Sequence record: PP047752
Strand: one strand, 5' to 3'
Length of the DNA: 64,000 bases
Origin: Escherichia phage KEP2
A program made the position numbers and the translations under genes. Below are positions 4,603-24,963 of the stretch, piece after piece; position 1 is the first letter of the stretch; every line of letters begins with the position of its first letter. The notes under the pieces were generated by a model that had not been told where the DNA came from, ran no database searches, and saw nothing but the letters and a program-made list of their open reading frames with translations.

Positions 4603-4679
4603 CTCTGTTTAGCTCAGCTTGGTAGAGCGTTCCGTTTGGGGCGGTAAGGCCGGAGGTTCAAGTCCTCCAACAGAGACCA
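4603..4679 (+). tRNA. tRNA-Pro (anticodon TGG)
   Basis: Acceptor complementarity, TAGCTCAG D-arm, anticodon loop TTTGGGG, T-arm GGAGG-TTCAAGT-CCTCC. Confidence 0.7.
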
Positions 4680-4686
4680 AATTAAT

Positions 4687-4764
4687 GTTCCAGTAGACAA
4701 AATGGTAAAGTCACCACTCTTTCAAAGTGGATATTTGAGGGTTCAAATCCCTTCTGGAACGCCA
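4687..4764 (+). tRNA. tRNA-Glu (anticodon TTC)
   Basis: Acceptor GTTCCAG/CTGGAAC, anticodon stem CCACT/AGTGG with loop CTTTCAA, T-loop TTCAAAT, CCA encoded. Confidence 0.7.
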
Positions 4765-4771
4765 GTTTTGA

Positions 4772-4844
4772 CAGAAGACCAATTACAGCAAACTTAATCT
4801 TATTCATCTGACACGAAATCGGACAAAGAAGAGGTTTGGTCTGG
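4772..4844 (+). repeat. hairpin module A of CAGAAGACC…GGTCTGG family
   Basis: 5' CAGAAGACCAA pairs with 3' TTGGTCTGG; CAGCAA box in loop. Confidence 0.5.
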
Positions 4845-4855
4845 TCATTAAGAAT

Positions 4856-4932
4856 TGCGGGTATAGAGAAAGGGCGTCTCACATGTCTCATTAGCATGGT
4901 ATCGGCAGGTTCGACTCCTGCACCCGCCTCCA
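4856..4932 (+). tRNA. tRNA with anticodon CAT (Met or Ile2)
   Basis: D-stem GAGA/TCTC, anticodon stem CATGT/GCATG with loop CTCATTA, T-arm GCAGG-TTCGACT-CCTGC, CCA encoded; one acceptor mismatch. Confidence 0.55.
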
Positions 4933-4938
4933 ATTTTG

Positions 4939-4998
4939 CAGAAGACCGTATTCAGCAACAAAATACTTTTTGCGGATAAAAGAAAAAACACGGTCTGG
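4939..4998 (+). repeat. hairpin module B of CAGAAGACC…GGTCTGG family
   Basis: 5' CAGAAGACCGT pairs with 3' ACGGTCTGG (compensatory change relative to A and C); CAGCAA box. Confidence 0.5.
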
Positions 4999-5009
4999 CA
5001 ATGTATTAA

Positions 5010-5086
5010 GGTTAGGAAGCACATAAGGTATGTGCGGTCGCCTGTTAAGCGAATGGCACAGGGTTCGAATCCCTGACTAACCGCCA
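5010..5086 (+). tRNA. tRNA-Asn (anticodon GTT)
   Basis: D-stem GCAC/GTGC, anticodon loop CTGTTAA, T-arm CAGGG-TTCGAAT-CCCTG, CCA encoded. Confidence 0.7.
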
Positions 5087-5173
5087 AATTATAATAAGTA
5101 TTTCAAGATGATGTTTTGAGAGGGCTATTTAGCCCCTCCCTTAAAGAGTTCTTACGAGTATTCTTTAAAGGAG

Positions 5174-5248
5174 CAGAAGACCAAATTCAGCAAGTACGTA
5201 TGATATTTTCAAGCCAATCAAATTTTGAAAAATTTAAACTTGGTCTGG
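5174..5248 (+). repeat. hairpin module C of CAGAAGACC…GGTCTGG family
   Basis: 5' CAGAAGACCAA pairs with 3' TTGGTCTGG; CAGCAA box. Confidence 0.5.
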
Positions 5249-5261
5249 CTCAACAAATTTA

Positions 5262-5393
5262 CAGAAGACCGTTTACAGCAAAACTTAAACAATCTATTTC
5301 TCCGGTAAAGAAAAGGTGAAGGTTCGATTCCTTCACTCGGCAGATGTCGAGTTGGTGTAATGGTAACACTTAAGATGATAAACAACGGTCTGG
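5262..5393 (+). ncRNA. candidate Y-RNA-like (YrlA-like) ncRNA with permuted tRNA-like core
   Basis: Terminal stem AGACCG(5266-5271)/CGGTCT(5386-5391); inside, T-arm GAAGG-TTCGATT-CCTTC (5318-5334), 7-bp acceptor-like stem ACTCGGC/GTCGAGT closed by AGAT loop (5335-5352), D-arm GTGT-AATGGTA-ACAC (5355-5369). Confidence 0.45.
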
Positions 5394-5542
5394 TAATTAT
5401 CTTTGTAGGTGAGCTATTAAGCTTACCTGTGAGTATGCGACCACAAAGGGTGAAAGGGTAAATTCTAGATTTAAACCCAACAAGGCACATCGCTACAGAC
5501 CTTAAGCAAGTCTGGGTAGCTTATCTACAAAGATAATTTAAT

Positions 5543-5618
5543 GGAAGTGTAGCAGAATGGTGATGCGGCAGACTTTTAATCTGACAGGCGATGGGTTCGA
5601 ATCCCTCCACTTCTACCA
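5543..5618 (+). tRNA. tRNA-Lys (anticodon TTT)
   Basis: Acceptor GGAAGTG/CACTTCT, anticodon loop CTTTTAA, T-loop TTCGAAT, CCA encoded. Confidence 0.6.
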
Positions 5619-5622
5619 ATAT

Positions 5623-5699
5623 GGTTCAGTCGCAGATAAGGTAATGCAGGGGTTTCATAAGCCCTTTGAATGTGGGTTAGATTCCCATCTGAACCTCCA
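5623..5699 (+). tRNA. tRNA with anticodon CAT (Met or Ile2)
   Basis: Acceptor GGTTCAG/CTGAACC, anticodon stem GGGGT/GCCCT with loop TTCATAA; T-loop atypical (TTAGATT). Confidence 0.5.
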
Positions 5700-5701
5700 A
5701 T

Positions 5702-5776
5702 TGTGGGTTAGCATAAATGGTAATGCAAACGGCTGATAACCGTTAGAAGAGGGTTCGATACCCTCACCTACAACCA
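5702..5776 (+). tRNA. tRNA-Ile (anticodon GAT)
   Basis: D-stem GCAT/ATGC, perfect anticodon stem AACGG/CCGTT with loop CTGATAA, T-arm GAGGG-TTCGATA-CCCTC, CCA encoded. Confidence 0.75.
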
Positions 5777-5791
5777 ATTTCAATAAAGTTG

Positions 5792-5820
5792 TTGACATTG
5801 AGATGTGACCACTTTATAGT
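5792..5820 (+). promoter_or_regulatory. sigma70-like promoter (TTGACA-17-TATAGT) inside the tRNA array
   Basis: TTGACA 5792-5797, 17-nt spacer, TATAGT 5815-5820. Confidence 0.55.
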
Positions 5821-6113
5821 AACTAAAATACTTCATAATATGTATAATTCAAACACCAATACATGAGCGTTAGACGTAACACAATGTGGGGAAATTTGTT
5901 GTACATATTCTGAATAGTTTTCGTTGCGTAGCGTCTATTTTGCAAATTTAAAATAAATGCAAACGACAATGTTTTTCTGGCAGTAGCTTGATAGGCTAAA
6001 CACCAGTGAGGTCTTCCAATCCCTCATCAAAGAATTTGGCGTACTCGCCCACGGTATGATTAATAAGGTGGGCATCTTTAAGGGCTTTCTAAGAGAGTCT
6101 TTAAAGATAATTA

Positions 6114-6195
6114 CGGGGCGTATCTCAGCGGTCTTCTAAACCGCCGTTAACCGAGTAAGTGGAGTATGCGGGTTCGAGTCCTGCCGCCTCGACCA
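6114..6195 (+). tRNA. atypical tRNA-like element (T-arm, acceptor and TCT anticodon-like loop; no recognisable D-arm)
   Basis: Acceptor CGGGGCG/CGCCTCG plus CCA, T-arm GCGGG-TTCGAGT-CCTGC, stem-loop GCGGT-CTTCTAA-ACCGC; 82 nt. Confidence 0.4.
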
Positions 6196-6209
6196 ATTTT
6201 GGAGAAATC

Positions 6210-6557
6210 ATGAAAACTTGTATTAGGTGCAAACTTAGCAAGGATGAAAATGATTTCTACATGAAAGATGGTAAGAGAACTCATTCATACTGTAAAAAGT
6301 GTGTTAATGAGCAAACCATAGAAAGACAAAGAGCACTTAAACTTTCAGCTATTGAGTACAAAGGTGGGGTTTGTCATGATTGTGGTAAAAGGTATCATCC
6401 AGCAGTGTATGACTTCCATCATTTGAATCCTTCAGAGAAAGATTTTAACATTGGTCATAGAAAAAGTCTGAAGTTCTCTCAAGAACTAAAAGATGAACTT
6501 GACAAATGTGTTTTGCTATGTTCAAATTGCCATAGGGTAAGACATGCAAAGTATTAG
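6210..6557 (+). CDS. HNH homing-endonuclease-like protein
   Basis: CxxC…CxxC zinc pairs and HH…N…CH motif (YDFHHLNP…CSNCHRVRH); start taken at ATG 6210 because track start 6159 overlaps the tRNA-like element. Confidence 0.7.
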   Translation: MKTCIRCKLSKDENDFYMKDGKRTHSYCKKCVNEQTIERQRALKLSAIEYKGGVCHDCGKRYHPAVYDFHHLNPSEKDFNIGHRKSLKFSQELKDELDKCVLLCSNCHRVRHAKY

Positions 6558-6694
6558 TTAGCAGATTGCTTAGACGACCTTATCGGGTCTCCGTGTAAGG
6601 AGGTGGTCTGTATCTCATGTTTTCCAGAACATGTAAATAATCTGAGAAGGGGCTTTACAGTGTTGCGAAAATACGGTAAGCTTCGAATTATAGT

Positions 6695-6776
6695 GTGGGA
6701 CGATGTTAAGACTCTAAGGCATGAGCAACGGCCTCCAAAACCGTTTCAAAGTGGTTCAACTCCTCCGTCCCATGCC
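6695..6776 (+). tRNA. tRNA-Trp-like (anticodon CCA), atypical length
   Basis: Acceptor GTGGGAC/GTCCCAT plus CCA, anticodon loop CTCCAAA; D-region too long for a canonical fold. Confidence 0.4.
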
Positions 6777-6790
6777 AAAGTCTTATTAGG

Positions 6791-6878
6791 GGTAGGTAGC
6801 GGCTAATGGTAGCCAAACTGTCTTGAAAACAGTTGCCACTGTAGAGATACGGTGAGGGTTCGACTCCTTTACTTACCG
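6791..6878 (+). tRNA. tRNA-Ser (anticodon TGA), long variable arm
   Basis: Acceptor GGTAGGT/ACTTACC, anticodon stem ACTGT/ACAGT with loop CTTGAAA, ~20-nt variable arm, T-loop TTCGACT. Confidence 0.6.
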
Positions 6879-7135
6879 CCTAATAAGATTTAAAGCCAAG
6901 CTTCATTCGGATGTTGCTTTGGTATCCCTCGTGTATTGTCGTACACACTGATAAAGCACCTAGTAGGTGTCACGGAGAAGAGATAATATCAAGCTCTCCA
7001 AAGGTTCTAGTCACCGGATTAAACAAGACTATGCAAAGACCAATTTAGGTCTTTTTAGAGGGCTTCTAAGGTTATTACAGCTTGTTGTGGAACCTTGTTG
7101 CTTAGGTTCTTAGAAGTTCTCTAAAAAGATTTAAT

Positions 7136-7212
7136 GCACCTATAGCCCAACTGGTAGAGGCAGCAGACTTAGAATCTGCTCAGTGTGAGTTCGAATCTCT
7201 CTAGGTGTACCA
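7136..7212 (+). tRNA. tRNA with anticodon TAG (Leu codon CUA) but short variable loop
   Basis: Acceptor GCACCTA/TAGGTGT plus CCA, 6-bp anticodon stem AGCAGA/TCTGCT with loop CTTAGAA, T-loop TTCGAAT. Confidence 0.5.
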
Positions 7213-7219
7213 AATTAAT

Positions 7220-7295
7220 GCAGGTGTAGCAAAATGGTTATGCGGCTGACTCTTAATCAGTAAGACGATGGGTTCAATTCCCTCCACCTGTACCA
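7220..7295 (+). tRNA. tRNA-Lys (anticodon CTT)
   Basis: Acceptor GCAGGTG/CACCTGT, anticodon loop CTCTTAA, T-loop TTCAATT, CCA encoded; paralogous to 5543-5618. Confidence 0.6.
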
Positions 7296-7301
7296 AACAT
7301 T

Positions 7302-7377
7302 GGGGATGTAGTTTACATGGTTAAAACATAAGTTTTGCAAACTTAAGTACAGGGTTCAATTCCCTGCTTCTCCACCA
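7302..7377 (+). tRNA. tRNA-Ala (anticodon TGC)
   Basis: D-stem GTTT/AAAC, perfect anticodon stem TAAGT/ACTTA with loop TTTGCAA, T-arm CAGGG-TTCAATT-CCCTG, CCA encoded. Confidence 0.7.
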
Positions 7378-7459
7378 ATTAGTGCATCCATAGTTTAAAT
7401 GGGAAAATTACAGTCTTCCAAACTGAGGTTGAGGGTTCGATTCCCTCTGGATGCTCCAA
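7372..7459 (+). repeat. 88-bp perfect direct repeat, copy 1 (contains tRNA-Gly)
   Basis: Identical to 7785-7872 by direct comparison. Confidence 0.85.
7384..7458 (+). tRNA. tRNA-Gly (anticodon TCC), copy 1
   Basis: Perfect acceptor GCATCCA/TGGATGC, anticodon loop CTTCCAA, T-arm GAGGG-TTCGATT-CCCTC, CCA encoded. Confidence 0.75.
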
Positions 7460-7465
7460 ATTAAT

Positions 7466-7541
7466 GCTCCTATCGTATAATTGGCTATTACGGTTGCCTT
7501 GTAAGCAACTTATCAGGGTTCGAATCCTTGTGGGAGCACCA
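7466..7541 (+). tRNA. tRNA-Thr (anticodon TGT)
   Basis: Acceptor GCTCCTA/TGGGAGC, perfect anticodon stem GTTGC/GCAAC with loop CTTGTAA, T-loop TTCGAAT, CCA encoded. Confidence 0.7.
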
Positions 7542-7543
7542 AT

Positions 7544-7632
7544 TCAGAGGTCAAGTGAAAGACCGCTGGTGTCAACTGAAGACCGTAACAAATTCCACGG
7601 AGTTGAGTTAGCGGCACAACTTCAGACCTCTT
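7544..7632 (+). ncRNA. structured spacer, candidate small RNA related to the AGACC hairpin family
   Basis: Outer stem CAGAGGTC/GACCTCT, inner pairings CTGAAG/CTTCAG and CCGCT/AGCGG; contains CTGAAGACCGTAACAAATT resembling the 5' box of modules A-D. Confidence 0.3.
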
Positions 7633-7636
7633 TCAT

Positions 7637-7711
7637 ACTCGCTTAGTTTATATGGTAAAACACCACCCTTACAAGATGAAGAAAAAGGTTCAAGTCCTTT
7701 AGTGAGTACCA
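7637..7711 (+). tRNA. tRNA-Val-like (anticodon TAC), weak anticodon stem
   Basis: Acceptor ACTCGCT/AGTGAGT plus CCA, D-stem GTTT/AAAC, T-arm AAAGG-TTCAAGT-CCTTT; only 3 of 5 anticodon-stem pairs. Confidence 0.45.
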
Positions 7712-7712
7712 T

Positions 7713-7790
7713 GTTCCAGTATCCCAATTGGCAGAGGATGCAAGCTCAAACCTTGTATTAGTGACGGTTCGAATCCGTCTTGGAACACCA
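7713..7790 (+). tRNA. tRNA with anticodon CAA (Leu codon UUG) but short variable loop
   Basis: Acceptor GTTCCAG/TTGGAAC plus CCA, anticodon stem GCAAG/CTTGT with loop CTCAAAC, T-arm GACGG-TTCGAAT-CCGTC. Confidence 0.5.
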
Positions 7791-7872
7791 ATTAGTGCAT
7801 CCATAGTTTAAATGGGAAAATTACAGTCTTCCAAACTGAGGTTGAGGGTTCGATTCCCTCTGGATGCTCCAA
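7785..7872 (+). repeat. 88-bp perfect direct repeat, copy 2 (contains tRNA-Gly)
   Basis: Identical to 7372-7459. Confidence 0.85.
7797..7871 (+). tRNA. tRNA-Gly (anticodon TCC), copy 2
   Basis: Sequence identical to 7384-7458. Confidence 0.75.
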
Positions 7873-16077: not shown

Positions 16078-16475
16078 GACTCTTAAACAGACACAGCTTT
16101 GTAGTAAAGCGTAAAGTCTCTGAAGACGGTTATTATAATGATGATGGTAATTGGGTAGCTTCACAAGATATTGTAGAGGTTAACTGTAAAGGTAATATCC
16201 AGCCATATATCAAAGGTTCTGTAAAGAATGGTACACAGATTGCTTTACCGGAAGGTATTAGGCTTACCGATACAAGAATCCTGTATACCACATATAAACT
16301 TAGAACTTCAGATGATGTAGAGTGGAATGAGTCTGACATTGTTATGATTGATGGTCATGAGTATGAAGTATTCATGACTATGGATTGGTCACAGCAATTA
16401 GCCCATACATCCCATTATGAATATATCATTATTAGAAGGGATAAAATGAATGCAGTTAGAAACAGCAGAACTTGA
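16074..16475 (+). CDS. hypothetical head-tail joining protein
   Basis: 133-aa ORF. Confidence 0.4.
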   Translation: MRLLNRHSFVVKRKVSEDGYYNDDGNWVASQDIVEVNCKGNIQPYIKGSVKNGTQIALPEGIRLTDTRILYTTYKLRTSDDVEWNESDIVMIDGHEYEVFMTMDWSQQLAHTSHYEYIIIRRDKMNAVRNSRT

Positions 16476-17049
16476 AAAAGGTCTAGTTAGAACCTTAGTG
16501 GATGTTATTGGTCACAGACTAGCTCGTGATAAAAATAATAGACCAAATGTAATTAGAGCTTACCCTTCTGATAACTCAAATGACAAAGGTTTAAAACCTG
16601 ACCAGCCATTTATTACCGTATATTGTCAAGACGCTGCAACACCTTATGGTTGGGTTCTTGATAAGTTTGTTGAGGATGATGTAGTTTGCTACAGAATTGC
16701 TTTTCAGATTCCAGTATTAATTACGGTGAATGGTAAAGGTGCTCACAGTATTATGCTTGAGCTTAAACAACGATTAGAGATGAGTTCAGTCAGAGATTTA
16801 ATTCTTGAAGAGACAGGAGCTACAGTTTTAGACACTGGAGCTATCCCAAATGACTATACTTATCTTAATACAGATTTCGAAAATTCTGCACCTCTTGTTG
16901 TAACTCTTGTAAAAAATTCAGTCCTGAAAGATGAACGTGGAAGTATTATTGAACGTGTCATTGTTGATGGTGAATTAGTTTACGAAGAAGGACAAGAGCC
17001 ACCAGAATATACTATCCATCTAGATGTAGACTCCAAAGGGGTAAAATAA
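16450..17049 (+). CDS. hypothetical tail completion protein
   Basis: 199-aa ORF. Confidence 0.4.
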   Translation: MQLETAELEKGLVRTLVDVIGHRLARDKNNRPNVIRAYPSDNSNDKGLKPDQPFITVYCQDAATPYGWVLDKFVEDDVVCYRIAFQIPVLITVNGKGAHSIMLELKQRLEMSSVRDLILEETGATVLDTGAIPNDYTYLNTDFENSAPLVVTLVKNSVLKDERGSIIERVIVDGELVYEEGQEPPEYTIHLDVDSKGVK

Positions 17050-18402
17050 ATGTGGAATCCAATTGTTAATGTAGATATTACATTGAACACCGCAGGAACT
17101 ACAAGAGAAGGTTTTGGGCTACCACTATTTTTAGCTTCAACAGATAACTTTGAAGAAAGAGTCCGTGGTTACACTTCCTTAACTGAAGTTGCTGAAGATT
17201 TCGATGAAAATTCTGCTGCATATAAGGCTGCTAAACAACTTTGGAGTCAGACTCCTAAAGTAACTCAGCTTTATATTGGTAGACGTGCTATGCAGTACAC
17301 TGTATCAATTCCTGACTCTGTTACTGAAAGTACCGATTATTCTTTAACTGTAGCTGTTAGAGGTGGAGTTTCTCAACCATTCCAGTACACTTCACAGTCA
17401 GAAGATACTGCTGAGAAGGTGTTACAGCAGCTTAAAACACAGATTGAAGCAGAACCTTCTGTAAAAGACCTTGTTACTGTCAATGTAACTGGTACTGGTG
17501 GTTCAGCAACAATGGTAATCACCAAAGCTGGTGACAACGACTTCGTGAAGGTTACTACTACAGCACAAACAGTGTCAATTGCAAGTACAACTGCTGACAC
17601 AGCATCGACTGCTCTGGCAGCTATTGAAGCTTATTCAACTGACTGGTATTTCATTGCAGCAGAAGACAGAACTCAACAGTTCGTCTTAGCAATGGCTTCT
17701 GAGATTCAAGCTCGTAAGAAGATTTTCTTTACAGCTAACTCTGATGTAGCAGCACTGCAAGGTACAGAATTAGCCAGTGCAAATGATGTTCCAGCACAAC
17801 TTGCTAAGAATAAGTACACTCGTACAGTTTGCTTGTGGCATCACACAGCGGCAGAAGACTATCCAGAAATGGCATACATTGCTTATGGTGCTCCATATGA
17901 TGCAGGTTCAATTGCTTGGGGTAACGCACAGTTAACTGGCGTAGCTGCTTCTCTACAGCCATCTAATCAGAGACCTCTGACAAGTATTCAGAAGTCAGCT
18001 TTAGATGCACGTCACTGTAACTTTATTGACCTTGATGGTGGTGTTCCAGTGGTTCGTAGAGGAATTACTTCTGGTGGGGAATGGATTGATATCATCCGTG
18101 GTGTTGACTGGTTAGAATCAGACCTGAAAACTTCTCTGAGAGACTTGCTAATTAATCAGAAGGGTGGTAAGATTACTTATGATGATACTGGTATTACCCG
18201 TATTCGTCAAGTCATTGAAACCTCTCTACAAAGAGCAGTCAACAGAAACTTCCTGTCATCTTACACAGTTAATGTTCCTAAAGCCTCTCAAGTTGCTTTA
18301 GCAGACAAGAAAGCTCGTATCCTGAAAGATGTTACCTTCTCAGGTATCTTAGCAGGGGCTATCTTGGATGTTGACTTGAAAGGTACAGTGGCTTACGAAT
18401 AA
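17050..18402 (+). CDS. putative tail sheath protein (or major tail protein)
   Basis: 450 aa, followed by a 148-aa ORF, two small chaperone-like ORFs and the tape measure gene (myovirus-like order). Confidence 0.45.
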   Translation: MWNPIVNVDITLNTAGTTREGFGLPLFLASTDNFEERVRGYTSLTEVAEDFDENSAAYKAAKQLWSQTPKVTQLYIGRRAMQYTVSIPDSVTESTDYSLTVAVRGGVSQPFQYTSQSEDTAEKVLQQLKTQIEAEPSVKDLVTVNVTGTGGSATMVITKAGDNDFVKVTTTAQTVSIASTTADTASTALAAIEAYSTDWYFIAAEDRTQQFVLAMASEIQARKKIFFTANSDVAALQGTELASANDVPAQLAKNKYTRTVCLWHHTAAEDYPEMAYIAYGAPYDAGSIAWGNAQLTGVAASLQPSNQRPLTSIQKSALDARHCNFIDLDGGVPVVRRGITSGGEWIDIIRGVDWLESDLKTSLRDLLINQKGGKITYDDTGITRIRQVIETSLQRAVNRNFLSSYTVNVPKASQVALADKKARILKDVTFSGILAGAILDVDLKGTVAYE

Positions 18403-18417
18403 TAGAGGTAAATTGGA

Positions 18418-18864
18418 ATGGCTATGTATCAGCAATATTCCCCTAAAGACGTTGTGTGTAGCTGGAATGGTATTGCCATTGAAGGCTTTGCCCCAGACTC
18501 ATTCTTACGTCTACAGAGAACATCACCACTTGTGACACCAGTTGTAGGTGCAGGTGGTCAAGTTGCTCTGACAAGAAATGCAGACAAGACAGGTACTATT
18601 GAGATTGAGCTAATGCAGACTTCTCTCTCTAATCAGATGCTTTCTGCAATTCAAGCTAAACAAGACAATATGGAACTTGAAGAAGATATCTCTTCTAACT
18701 TCGTAATCTACGACCCATCAGGCTCTGTTCTGGCAACTGGTATTAATGCTTGGTTGCAGGAACTACCGCAGATTGAACTTGGTCGTGACCAGAACTCTAA
18801 GACTTGGATTTTTGGTTGTGAGAAGCTAGACTACACTTCTACAATTCCAGCGTCAAGTGTTTAA
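18418..18864 (+). CDS. putative tail tube protein
   Basis: 148-aa ORF after sheath candidate, followed by terminator. Confidence 0.45.
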   Translation: MAMYQQYSPKDVVCSWNGIAIEGFAPDSFLRLQRTSPLVTPVVGAGGQVALTRNADKTGTIEIELMQTSLSNQMLSAIQAKQDNMELEEDISSNFVIYDPSGSVLATGINAWLQELPQIELGRDQNSKTWIFGCEKLDYTSTIPASSV

Positions 18865-18876
18865 TAAATCCTATAA

Positions 18877-18910
18877 GGGGGAGACTTTAAAAGGTCTTCC
18901 CCTTTTTTTG
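18877..18910 (+). terminator. rho-independent terminator
   Basis: GGGGGAGAC…GGTCTTCCCC hairpin followed by TTTTTTT. Confidence 0.6.
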
Positions 18911-18938
18911 TTTCTTTTAAAAGTATTAAGGAATCACA

Positions 18939-19337
18939 ATGAAAACAGAAGCTAGAGTAATTAATGGTAAGAAAGTAAATATCGTTCTGCTTGGGGCAAG
19001 AGATGGTATTAAGATGTCTATGAAGTTGGGTAAAATTGTTGTTCCAACCTTTGCACAGATGCTGTCAAGTCTGACTGATAAAGATAAGAAAGAAGTTCCA
19101 ATGGTTCCATTTAAAGAACTTGTTGAGGCTTGTTTTGACAGAATTGAAGAAATTAACCTTGAAGAAATGGCTACCCTGCTATTTCAAGGGGCAACTGTCG
19201 ATGACTTCCCACTTAATATTGATACATACTTCCAAGCAAACTATGGCGAATTTATTGATTACTTAGCATTTGCGCTGGAGGCAAACTTCGGAAGTTTTTT
19301 CGAAGCAAGCATTTTCAAAAGCCTAACTTCTCAGTAA
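18939..19337 (+). CDS. tail assembly chaperone (upstream ORF)
   Basis: 132-aa ORF before tape measure; contains slippery site near 3' end. Confidence 0.5.
   Translation: MKTEARVINGKKVNIVLLGARDGIKMSMKLGKIVVPTFAQMLSSLTDKDKKEVPMVPFKELVEACFDRIEEINLEEMATLLFQGATVDDFPLNIDTYFQANYGEFIDYLAFALEANFGSFFEASIFKSLTSQ
19295..19301 (+). other. candidate -1 programmed ribosomal frameshift heptamer T_TTT_TTC
   Basis: X_XXY_YYZ in zero frame of 18939..19337; -1 frame is open from 19298 into ATG 19340 and through 19579. Confidence 0.5.
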
Positions 19338-19339
19338 AC

Positions 19340-19578
19340 ATGGGTAATACTCTACAGACACCACTAACTGATGCTGCTGTAGAGGCAACCTATGAAGAAG
19401 CAGACGAGATGAAATTTGTGCTTGCTATTTATGGTATGGAAGGGTGTAAAGAAACACTTGACCAACTCTTTGCTATGACATTCTCTGATTTATTATCATT
19501 GAGACAATTTCTTGAAATTCAGAGGTCGTATAAAGAGGAAATTGCTTACAACGAACTTAGAAGAGCAGGAAAAATGTA

Positions 19579-19579
<1 letters not shown>
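19340..19579 (+). CDS. tail assembly chaperone (downstream ORF, probably expressed as frameshift fusion)
   Basis: 79-aa ORF in -1 frame relative to 18939..19337. Confidence 0.45.

Positions 19580-24963
<5,384 letters not shown>

What the first reader, a model, noticed from the sequence alone, without database searches (positions are those of the whole stretch)
18939..19579. Programmed -1 frameshift site joining the two tail chaperone ORFs
The heptamer T_TTT_TTC (19295-19301) is in X_XXY_YYZ register in the upstream ORF. The -1 frame is open from 19298 through the downstream ATG at 19340 to 19579, so slippage would give a fusion protein. This is the conserved arrangement of tail assembly chaperone genes immediately upstream of the tape measure gene.
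Basis: partly seen in the sequence, partly recalled or inferred. Interest (0 to 1): 0.45.

Follow-up and report, generated by a model that had tools for sequence, protein, structure and literature searches.

The report
Tail chaperone -1 frameshift site, confirmed
The slippery T_TTT_TTC site is real and is conserved across a wide family of phage tail chaperone genes, so it almost certainly makes a fused chaperone by ribosomal -1 frameshifting, but this is the standard, already-described arrangement and not a new discovery.

Summary
The window is a Felix O1-like E. coli myophage (genus Felixounavirus, 98% identical to phage JN01). ORF1 (18939-19337) matches Pfam Phage_TAC_15. T_TTT_TTC (19295-19301) sits in X_XXY_YYZ register (AGT TTT TTC). 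The -1 frame is open from 19259 to the stop at 19577-19579, which overlaps the tape-measure start. Slippage would give a 213-aa fusion.

One heptamer alone is weak evidence, since about 0.09 is expected by chance in the overlap. The comparison with relatives is decisive. 67 of 68 loci carry T6/T7 at the same site, in 14 clusters below 60% aa identity. These include Erwinia, Yersinia, Pectobacterium and rV5-like phages and GC-rich metagenomic phages. In 66 of them the -1 frame runs on for 83-124 codons. The ORF2 ATG is not conserved: Erwinia/Hafnia phages lack it, and one Felixounavirus contig has ATA. Nucleotide identity peaks at the heptamer and is lowest around that ATG.

An SD-like GGAGG lies 13 nt upstream, and a comparable motif occurs in 16 of 21 lineages. 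No downstream structure was found.

The orthologous site in Citrobacter phages Michonne and Mijalis is already annotated or published as a -1 frameshift. The finding is correct but already known, and no experiment yet confirms it.

The parts
18939..19337 (+). Upstream chaperone ORF (gpG-like, 132 aa), the product of standard decoding
   Evidence: Pfam Phage_TAC_15 2.3e-18. phrog_1613 tail assembly chaperone 6.9e-48.
19277..19281 (+). Internal Shine-Dalgarno-like GGAGG, 13 nt upstream of the heptamer; a candidate dnaX-type frameshift stimulator (inferred)
   Evidence: -9.3 kcal/mol against the anti-SD, in the top 0.3% of 12-mers in the locus. An SD-like 4-mer lies 11-14 nt upstream in 16 of 21 lineage representatives, against about 6% background. 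In L042, L049 and L058 it is built from different codons (AAG GAG, CGG GAG, AGG GAG).
19295..19301 (+). Slippery heptamer T_TTT_TTC in X_XXY_YYZ register
   Evidence: Conserved as T6 or T7 in 67 of 68 loci and in 14 clusters below 60% aa identity. U_UU.U_UU.C is among the efficient -1 motifs in E. coli (PMC4066793).
19259..19337 (+). Overlap in which both the 0 frame and the -1 frame are open
   Evidence: TGA at 19256-19258 in the -1 frame; TAA at 19335-19337 in the 0 frame.
19276..19325 (+). Island of nucleotide conservation around and just downstream of the heptamer, a dual-coding signature
   Evidence: 83-87% identity to four distant Ounavirinae lineages here, against 26-66% elsewhere in the gene pair; in Erwinia phages blastn aligns only query 385-425, which is window 19284-19324.
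19301..19579 (+). -1 frame extension (T part, 92 aa) of the fusion; it contains the ORF2 usually annotated separately (19340-19579)
   Evidence: phrog_4963, 2.8e-55. Residues R122, K128 and P129, which lie upstream of the ORF2 ATG, are invariant in five lineages.
19340..19342 (+). ATG usually annotated as the ORF2 start; no SD in front of it and not conserved
   Evidence: no start codon for 57 codons in Erwinia and Hafnia phages; only a TTG in Yersinia P778. ATA in the Felixounavirus contig L025; the conservation trough (26-30%) falls here.
19579..21807 (+). Tape measure gene; its ATG overlaps the stop of the -1 frame (TAATG)
   Evidence: Pfam TMP_3 2.4e-17. phrog_4036.
18418..18864 (+). Tail tube gene immediately upstream (context)
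   Evidence: Pfam KPP10_Orf10; phrog_280.

Best explanation
This is a programmed -1 ribosomal frameshift of the lambda G/GT type in the tail assembly chaperone gene of a Felix O1-like myophage.

Most ribosomes translate ORF1 to its stop and make the 132-aa chaperone. A minority slip one base back when the two tRNA-Phe occupy UUU (P site) and UUC (A site). They re-pair with UUU UUU and continue from CGA at 19301 in the -1 frame. This yields a 213-aa fusion whose C-terminal 92 residues form the T part.

The two products would be made in a fixed ratio and would act on the tape measure protein during tail assembly.

Shown here: the site, its register, the open frame, the family membership, and deep conservation of the site but not of the ORF2 start.

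Inferred: that slippage is ribosomal; that the GGAGG 13 nt upstream acts as a dnaX-type stimulator by pairing with 16S rRNA; and that the fusion has the lambda gpGT role. No downstream RNA structure appears to take part in this lineage.
For: The site and frames are confirmed. The gene order sheath-tube-TAC-TAC'-TMP and the Phage_TAC_15 hit are confirmed.

The same heptamer, in the same register and with an open -1 frame, occurs in Mooglevirus, Kolesnikvirus, Yersinia P778 and Pectobacterium Wc4-1. It also occurs in 53 IMG/VR loci and in the rV5-like phages CR8 and Av-05.

Tally: 67 of 68 loci have T6/T7, and 66 have a -1 extension of 83-124 codons. The preceding codon varies (AGT, ACT, GAT, TGT) but always ends in T. 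The first Phe codon is always TTT, even at 57-65% GC. The rough joint synonymous probability over 14 clusters is about 1e-10.

The ORF2 ATG is absent in other lineages, is ATA in L025, and has no SD. Nucleotide identity peaks at 19276-19325 and is lowest at the ATG. -1 frame residues upstream of the ATG are invariant.

An SD-like motif is conserved 11-14 nt upstream, within the 6-17 nt range used for stimulatory SDs in PMC4066793. U_UU.U_UU.C is an efficient E. coli shift motif.

The ortholog in Michonne is annotated as 'ribosomal slippage' and is described in PMC4591319 and PMC5543628.
Against: No protein or reporter data exist for this phage or, as far as the searches showed, for any Felix O1-like phage. 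No significant downstream stimulatory structure was found (-3.2 kcal/mol, z +0.74). The SD-like motif is missing in Kolesnikvirus, L039, L052 and CR8, so it is not essential to the family. In this genus an ATG lies 2 nt after the ORF1 stop, so some independent ORF2 translation is possible. Inserting one U by RNA polymerase would give the identical protein.
Confidence: 0.85

Rival explanations
1. Transcriptional slippage. RNA polymerase adds one extra U at the T6 run, possibly helped by the weak nascent hairpin at 19275-19291, which together with the T-run looks like an intrinsic terminator. Standard translation of the U7 mRNA then gives the same fusion.
For: The terminator-like scan reports the hairpin 19275-19291 followed by AAGTTTTTTC. 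The hairpin is -6.5 kcal/mol and falls in the 3rd percentile of the locus background. Some lineages have T7. Context-dependent slippage driven by a 5'-adjacent stem-loop is known (Penno 2015, as cited in PMC5009743). The protein product would be identical.
Against: Efficient bacterial slippage is reported for runs of 9 A or T. Shorter motifs needed a strong GC stem directly adjacent to the run (PMC5009743). Here the stem has two G-U pairs, lies 3 nt away, and is not conserved (median percentile 0.22; absent in L049, L053, L060 and L061). Runs never exceed T7 in 67 loci. The better-conserved upstream element is an SD-like motif, which is a ribosome-specific signal.
Confidence: 0.07
2. No recoding. 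ORF1 and ORF2 are two separate proteins. ORF2 is started at ATG 19340 by termination-reinitiation after the ORF1 stop (TAA AC ATG), and the heptamer is just the codons for Ser-Phe-Phe.
For: An ATG lies 2 nt after the ORF1 stop. Every Felixounavirus GenBank record inspected that carries T6 annotates two CDSs and no slippage; CL1, which has T7, annotates one fused CDS. A single heptamer in the overlap has roughly a 9% chance expectation.
Against: There is no SD before the ATG. The ATG is ATA in L025. Erwinia and Hafnia phages have no start codon for 57 codons, and Pectobacterium has none at the homologous place. Conservation is lowest around the ATG and highest at the heptamer. The -1 frame peptide RSKHFQKP upstream of the ATG is conserved. 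Synonymous positions of the heptamer are fixed in 14 deep clusters.
Confidence: 0.05
3. Both routes operate in this genus. The fusion is made by frameshifting, and a free 79-aa T protein is also made from ATG 19340, giving three products.
For: The ATG is present in most Felixounavirus loci and lies 2 nt after the ORF1 stop. Mooglevirus has an ATG with GGAAGG 12 nt upstream.
Against: The ATG position is not conserved between genera and is dispensable in L025. A predicted hairpin at 19339-19394 would pair the ATG. In lambda only G and GT are made (PMC5009743).
Confidence: 0.15

Closest known systems
Tape-measure chaperone frameshift of Citrobacter phages Michonne and Mijalis (Ounavirinae, Mooglevirus; GenBank KT001916, CDS AKU44019.1 'ribosomal slippage')
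   Same: It is orthologous. The heptamer AGTTTTTTCGA is identical and in the same register. The upstream GGAGG is the same. The region is about 80% identical at the DNA level and the fusion protein 76% identical, and it occupies the same position between the tube and tape measure genes.
   Different: The 0-frame tail is 3 codons longer and the first ATG in the -1 frame lies elsewhere. In genus Felixounavirus none of the records inspected annotates slippage; those with T6 show two CDSs and CL1, with T7, one fused CDS.
Phage lambda G / GT (Levin 1993; Xu, Hendrix & Duda 2004, 2013, 2014)
   Same: [quoted passage not shown]
   Different: Lambda is a siphophage and uses G_GGA_AAG (from my own knowledge). 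No sequence similarity to gpG was detected or tested here. The function and product ratio are inferred by analogy only.
Myophage equivalents P2 E/E+E' and Mu (Xu et al. 2004; from my own knowledge)
   Same: These are contractile-tail phages with a chaperone pair between tube and tape measure. P2 also shifts on a T-run.
   Different: They belong to a different protein family; no Pfam overlap was seen.
E. coli dnaX -1 frameshift signal
   Same: A slippery heptamer with an internal SD-like sequence upstream. dnaX has a 10-nt spacer (Larsen 1994, cited from my own knowledge). PMC4066793 searches for stimulatory SDs 6-17 nt upstream.
   Different: dnaX uses A_AAA_AAG and also a strong downstream hairpin. 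No such hairpin is present here.

Membership tests
Conserved -1 frameshift of tail assembly chaperone genes (lambda G/GT type, Xu et al. 2004) | Two overlapping ORFs located between the major tail/tube gene and the tape measure gene | tested here: met
   Tube 18418-18864, ORF1 18939-19337, -1 frame 19259-19579, TMP 19579-21807.
Conserved -1 frameshift of tail assembly chaperone genes (lambda G/GT type, Xu et al. 2004) | [quoted passage not shown] | tested here: met
   T_TTT_TTC at 19295-19301, with its last codon (TTC, 19299-19301) 11 codons before the ORF1 stop.
Conserved -1 frameshift of tail assembly chaperone genes (lambda G/GT type, Xu et al. 2004) | Slip site and -1 extension conserved among relatives | tested here: met
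   67 of 68 loci in 14 clusters below 60% aa identity; -1 extension of 83-124 codons in 66.
Conserved -1 frameshift of tail assembly chaperone genes (lambda G/GT type, Xu et al. 2004) | Downstream segment lacks its own conserved translation start | tested here: met
   No SD before ATG 19340. The ATG is absent in Kolesnikvirus, has no counterpart at the homologous place in Pectobacterium Wc4-1, and is ATA in L025. In this window an ATG does exist, so independent initiation is not excluded for this genus.
Conserved -1 frameshift of tail assembly chaperone genes (lambda G/GT type, Xu et al. 2004) | Fusion protein actually made, at a low fixed ratio, and required for tail assembly | not testable with these tools
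   This needs mass spectrometry or western blotting, a reporter assay and genetics. No such data were found for Felix O1-like phages.
Pfam PF21822 Phage_TAC_15 | Score above the curated gathering threshold (22 bits) | tested here: met
   67.4 bits, E 2.3e-18, residues 9-123 of the fusion.
dnaX-type stimulated -1 frameshift (upstream SD plus downstream hairpin) | SD-like sequence at a stimulatory distance upstream of the heptamer | tested here: met
   GGAGG at 19277-19281 with a 13-nt spacer; conserved in 16 of 21 lineage representatives. Its function was not tested.
dnaX-type stimulated -1 frameshift (upstream SD plus downstream hairpin) | Stable RNA structure starting a few nt downstream of the heptamer | tested here: not met
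   -3.2 kcal/mol and z +0.74 for 19302-19350. No significant fold in any Ounavirinae representative, although L042, L049 and L053 do have hairpins.
Stem-loop-mediated transcriptional slippage (Penno et al. 2015) | Strong, conserved nascent-RNA hairpin directly 5' of the slippery run | tested here: inconclusive
   A weak hairpin at 19275-19291 (-6.5 kcal/mol, two G-U pairs, 3 nt from the T-run). It is not conserved across lineages (median percentile 0.22).

The most novel reading that the evidence does not exclude
The fusion might be produced partly or wholly by RNA polymerase slippage at the T6 run, promoted by the terminator-like upstream hairpin (19275-19291), rather than by the ribosome. 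Sequence alone cannot separate the two routes, because they give the same protein.
Probability: 0.07. Interest if true: 0.45.

Novelty: already known. Interest (0 to 1): 0.15.

Why it matters
The main value is for annotation. None of the Felixounavirus records inspected, the Felix O1 and wV8 RefSeq entries among them, annotates a slippage join. Kolesnikvirus and rV5-like records leave the T part unannotated or call it 'hypothetical'.

The comparison also gives a family-wide rule. Phage_TAC_15 chaperones shift at a T_TTT_TTY that sits in the motif (F)ALEANFxSFF, often with an SD-like element 11-14 nt upstream. That rule could be used to annotate these genes automatically. It also offers a compact signal with no evident downstream structure, with natural variants, for frameshifting studies.

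It does not change the understanding of tail assembly or of recoding.

Tried and rejected
Downstream stimulatory structure. Folding 19302-19350 and 19302-19400, and 60 nt downstream in 18 lineage representatives, gave nothing significant next to the heptamer in Ounavirinae. The hairpin at 19339-19394 lies 37 nt away and its arms are not kept in Michonne (seen by eye).

Rfam scan of 18800-19700 at E<=1. It returned only two sub-threshold chance hits on the upstream terminator.

Upstream hairpin as a conserved element. It is not supported across lineages.

PDB sequence search with the fusion protein. No meaningful hit; the best E-value was 0.62.

Literature search for 'Felixounavirus' + 'frameshift' + 'tail assembly chaperone'. 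Zero papers. The Felix O1 search gave only incidental mentions.

A phage-encoded tRNA-Phe that might modulate shifting. None is among the 16 tRNAs in the window.

Not run, because they would not discriminate between the hypotheses: structure prediction, the large protein database searches, and the metagenome and genome contig scans.

Full report
IDENTITY OF THE WINDOW. Region 17000-22000 is 97-98% identical to Felix O1-like E. coli myophages such as JN01, ZX4221, SME50 and wV8. 297 phage records match, nearly all of them Ounavirinae. The local gene order is:
- neck/tail terminator, 16450-17049
- sheath, 17050-18402 (DUF3383; phrog_205)
- tube, 18418-18864 (KPP10_Orf10; phrog_280)
- ORF1, 18939-19337 (Pfam Phage_TAC_15, 2.3e-18; phrog_1613)
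- ORF2, 19340-19579 (phrog_4963, 'tail assembly chaperone')
- tape measure, 19579-21807 (TMP_3; phrog_4036)
- a Dit-like baseplate protein, 21807-22604

THE OBSERVATION. The sequence at 19293-19304 is AGT TTT TTC GAA in the ORF1 frame, so T_TTT_TTC (19295-19301) is in X_XXY_YYZ register. The -1 frame is open from 19259 to the TAA at 19577-19579, and that stop shares its last A with the tape-measure ATG (TAATG). A tandem slip would give ORF1 residues 1-121 followed by RSKHFQKPNFSVNMGNTLQ..., 213 aa in all. The coordinates and the description are exact.

IS IT MORE THAN CHANCE? Within the window alone the evidence is only moderate. In-register XXXYYYZ heptamers occupy 0.36% of codon positions (69 of 18,925), so about 0.09 is expected in the 25-codon overlap. 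Only two of the 69 open into a long -1 frame, and the other one (22589) is the ribosome-binding site of the next gene.

The comparison with relatives settles the matter.

(i) The same heptamer, in the same register and followed by an open -1 frame ending at the tape-measure start, occurs in four other lineages. These are Mooglevirus (Michonne), Kolesnikvirus (Erwinia phiEa21-4, Hafnia SPARTY), Yersinia P778 and Pectobacterium Wc4-1. Their fusion proteins are only 35-76% identical to the window's.

(ii) A scan of IMG/VR with the fusion alignment gave 53 loci, down to 26% identity. The rV5-like phages CR8 and Av-05 were fetched separately.

(iii) Across all 68 loci, 67 have T6 (61 loci) or T7 (6 loci) at the homologous place in the motif (F)ALEANFxSFF. 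In 66 of them the -1 frame continues for 83-124 codons.

(iv) The residue before Phe-Phe varies (Ser, Thr, Asp, Cys), yet its codon always ends in T (AGT, ACT, GAT, TGT). The first Phe codon is always TTT, even in contigs of 57-65% GC. Given local codon usage, the joint chance over 14 clusters (below 60% aa identity) is about 1e-10. This figure is rough and is not a formal p-value, because the clusters share ancestry.

(v) Nucleotide identity of four distant Ounavirinae lineages to the window is 26-66% along the gene pair. It rises to 83-87% at 19276-19325. In Erwinia phages this stretch is the only part that blastn can align (query 385-425, 92.7% identity). This pattern is what two overlapping translated frames would produce.

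ORF2 IS NOT A CONSERVED INDEPENDENT GENE.
- There is no SD in front of ATG 19340.
- The start codon is not positionally conserved between genera.
- Erwinia and Hafnia phages have no ATG, GTG or TTG in the -1 frame for 57 codons after the heptamer. Their GenBank records simply leave a gap of about 236 nt.
- One 87-kb Felixounavirus contig (L025) has ATA in place of the ATG while keeping the heptamer.
- Conservation is lowest (26-30%) exactly around the ATG.
- The -1 frame residues R122, K128 and P129, which lie upstream of the ATG, are invariant in five lineages.

MECHANISM. The most likely mechanism is tandem -1 slippage of two tRNA-Phe, from UUU-UUC onto UUU-UUU. U_UU.U_UU.C belongs to the efficient class H_HH.U_UU.Y in E. 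coli. It was among the motifs selected there for showing more than 0.1% frameshifting without stimulators, and it is used by IS elements (PMC4066793). None of the 16 tRNA genes in the window is a tRNA-Phe, so decoding presumably falls to the host tRNA-Phe.

No stable structure follows the heptamer in the Felix O1 group (-3.2 kcal/mol, z +0.74). Some distant lineages (L042, L049, L053) do have hairpins starting 1-4 nt downstream.

Upstream, GGAGG (19277-19281, 13-nt spacer) pairs with the anti-SD at -9.3 kcal/mol, which is in the top 0.3% of 12-mers in the locus. An SD-like 4-mer lies 11-14 nt upstream in 16 of 21 lineage representatives, against about 6% background. In three lineages it is built from different amino-acid codons (Lys/Arg-Glu rather than Glu-Ala). 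This fits the 6-17 nt range used for stimulatory SDs (PMC4066793) and the dnaX precedent. It is an inference, and the motif is absent in Kolesnikvirus, L039, L052 and CR8.

The roles of the two products are taken from lambda by analogy (PMC5009743). There, G binds the tape measure and the T part of GT recruits the tube subunit.

RIVAL EXPLANATIONS.
- Transcriptional slippage would give the same protein. A weak hairpin (19275-19291, -6.5 kcal/mol) followed by the T-run was flagged as terminator-like. However, efficient bacterial slippage needs about 9 T, or else a strong adjacent GC stem (PMC5009743). The hairpin is not conserved, and the runs never exceed T7.
- Independent translation of ORF2 as the only route is contradicted by the start-codon data above. 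As an additional route in this genus it remains possible.

WHAT IS ALREADY KNOWN. Its site is identical, AGTTTTTTCGA. [quoted passage not shown] None of the Felixounavirus records inspected annotates slippage: Felix O1 RefSeq, HMD-P10, Shy, ekra, BPS15Q2 and Pr103Blw list two CDSs, and CL1 lists one fused CDS. I found no experimental demonstration for this phage group.

VERDICT. The feature is an already-known kind, and its ortholog is already published. The only modest additions are two. One is the breadth of T_TTT_TTY conservation across the Phage_TAC_15 family, including Vequintavirinae and GC-rich uncultured phages. The other is the recurrent upstream SD-like element. Interest is low.

Noticed in passing
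L007 (Escherichia phage CL1, OK040806.1) 957-964: This Felixounavirus record has T7 instead of T6 at the slip site, so the two chaperone frames are fused in the DNA and annotated as one 213-aa 'tape measure chaperone'. It is either a homopolymer sequencing error or a genuine variant that makes only the fusion.
   Followed up: partly
L025 (IMGVR_UViG_3300045988_004167) 1901-1903: A near-identical 87-kb Felixounavirus contig carries ATA where the window has the ORF2 ATG (19340), and it keeps the heptamer. This is a natural test showing that the ORF2 start codon is dispensable.
   Followed up: yes
L064 (Cronobacter phage CR8) about 1848 and L065 (Escherichia phage Av-05) about 1773: The rV5-like (Vequintavirinae) chaperone genes carry the same T_TTT_TTC in register (motif VNYGCFF), with -1 extensions of 123-124 codons reaching the tape measure gene. 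The RefSeq records annotate only a short 'hypothetical protein' there and no slippage.
   Followed up: partly
L005 (Erwinia phiEa21-4) 2070-2305; L009 (Hafnia SPARTY) 1012-1247; L010 (Pectobacterium Wc4-1) 1624-1858: These records leave a gap of about 236 nt unannotated between the chaperone and the tape measure genes. The gap is the -1 frame T part, which has no start codon of its own.
   Followed up: yes
L059 (IMGVR_UViG_3300035050_000006) about 1560-1600: This is the only relative without the T-run; its motif reads VNFGDLFT. A homologous T part is still open in the -1 frame, so this lineage may shift at another site. An in-register C_CCT_TTC lies 57 codons before the stop.
   Followed up: no
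window 22589-22595: A_AAG_GGG sits in register 3 codons before the stop of the Dit-like gene (21807-22604), with the next gene (22604-22945) in the -1 frame. It is most simply the AAGGGG ribosome-binding site of that next gene (TAATG overlap), although the motif is listed as shift-prone in E. coli (PMC4066793).
   Followed up: partly
window 18875-18910: A strong intrinsic-terminator-like hairpin (13 pairs followed by a T-run) lies between the tube gene and the chaperone gene. It is conserved in position in relatives and is annotated as a terminator in Michonne, wV8 and AYO145A. It may lower chaperone and tape-measure transcription relative to sheath and tube.
   Followed up: partly
window 19339-19394: A predicted hairpin (part of a -24.5 kcal/mol fold, z -2.44) pairs the ORF2 ATG (CAUGGGU with ACCUAUG). 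It is too far from the heptamer (37 nt) to be a classical stimulator, and its arms are not kept in Michonne.
   Followed up: partly
H109, GU169904.1 'Staphylococcus phage SA1' 74360-74997: A 147-kb record labelled as a Staphylococcus phage contains a Felix O1-like chaperone region that is 95.9% identical at the protein level. This suggests a chimeric or contaminated assembly.
   Followed up: no
window 4603-7871: A cluster of 16 tRNA genes lies on the + strand, with none for Phe. This is typical of Felix O1-like phages.
   Followed up: no
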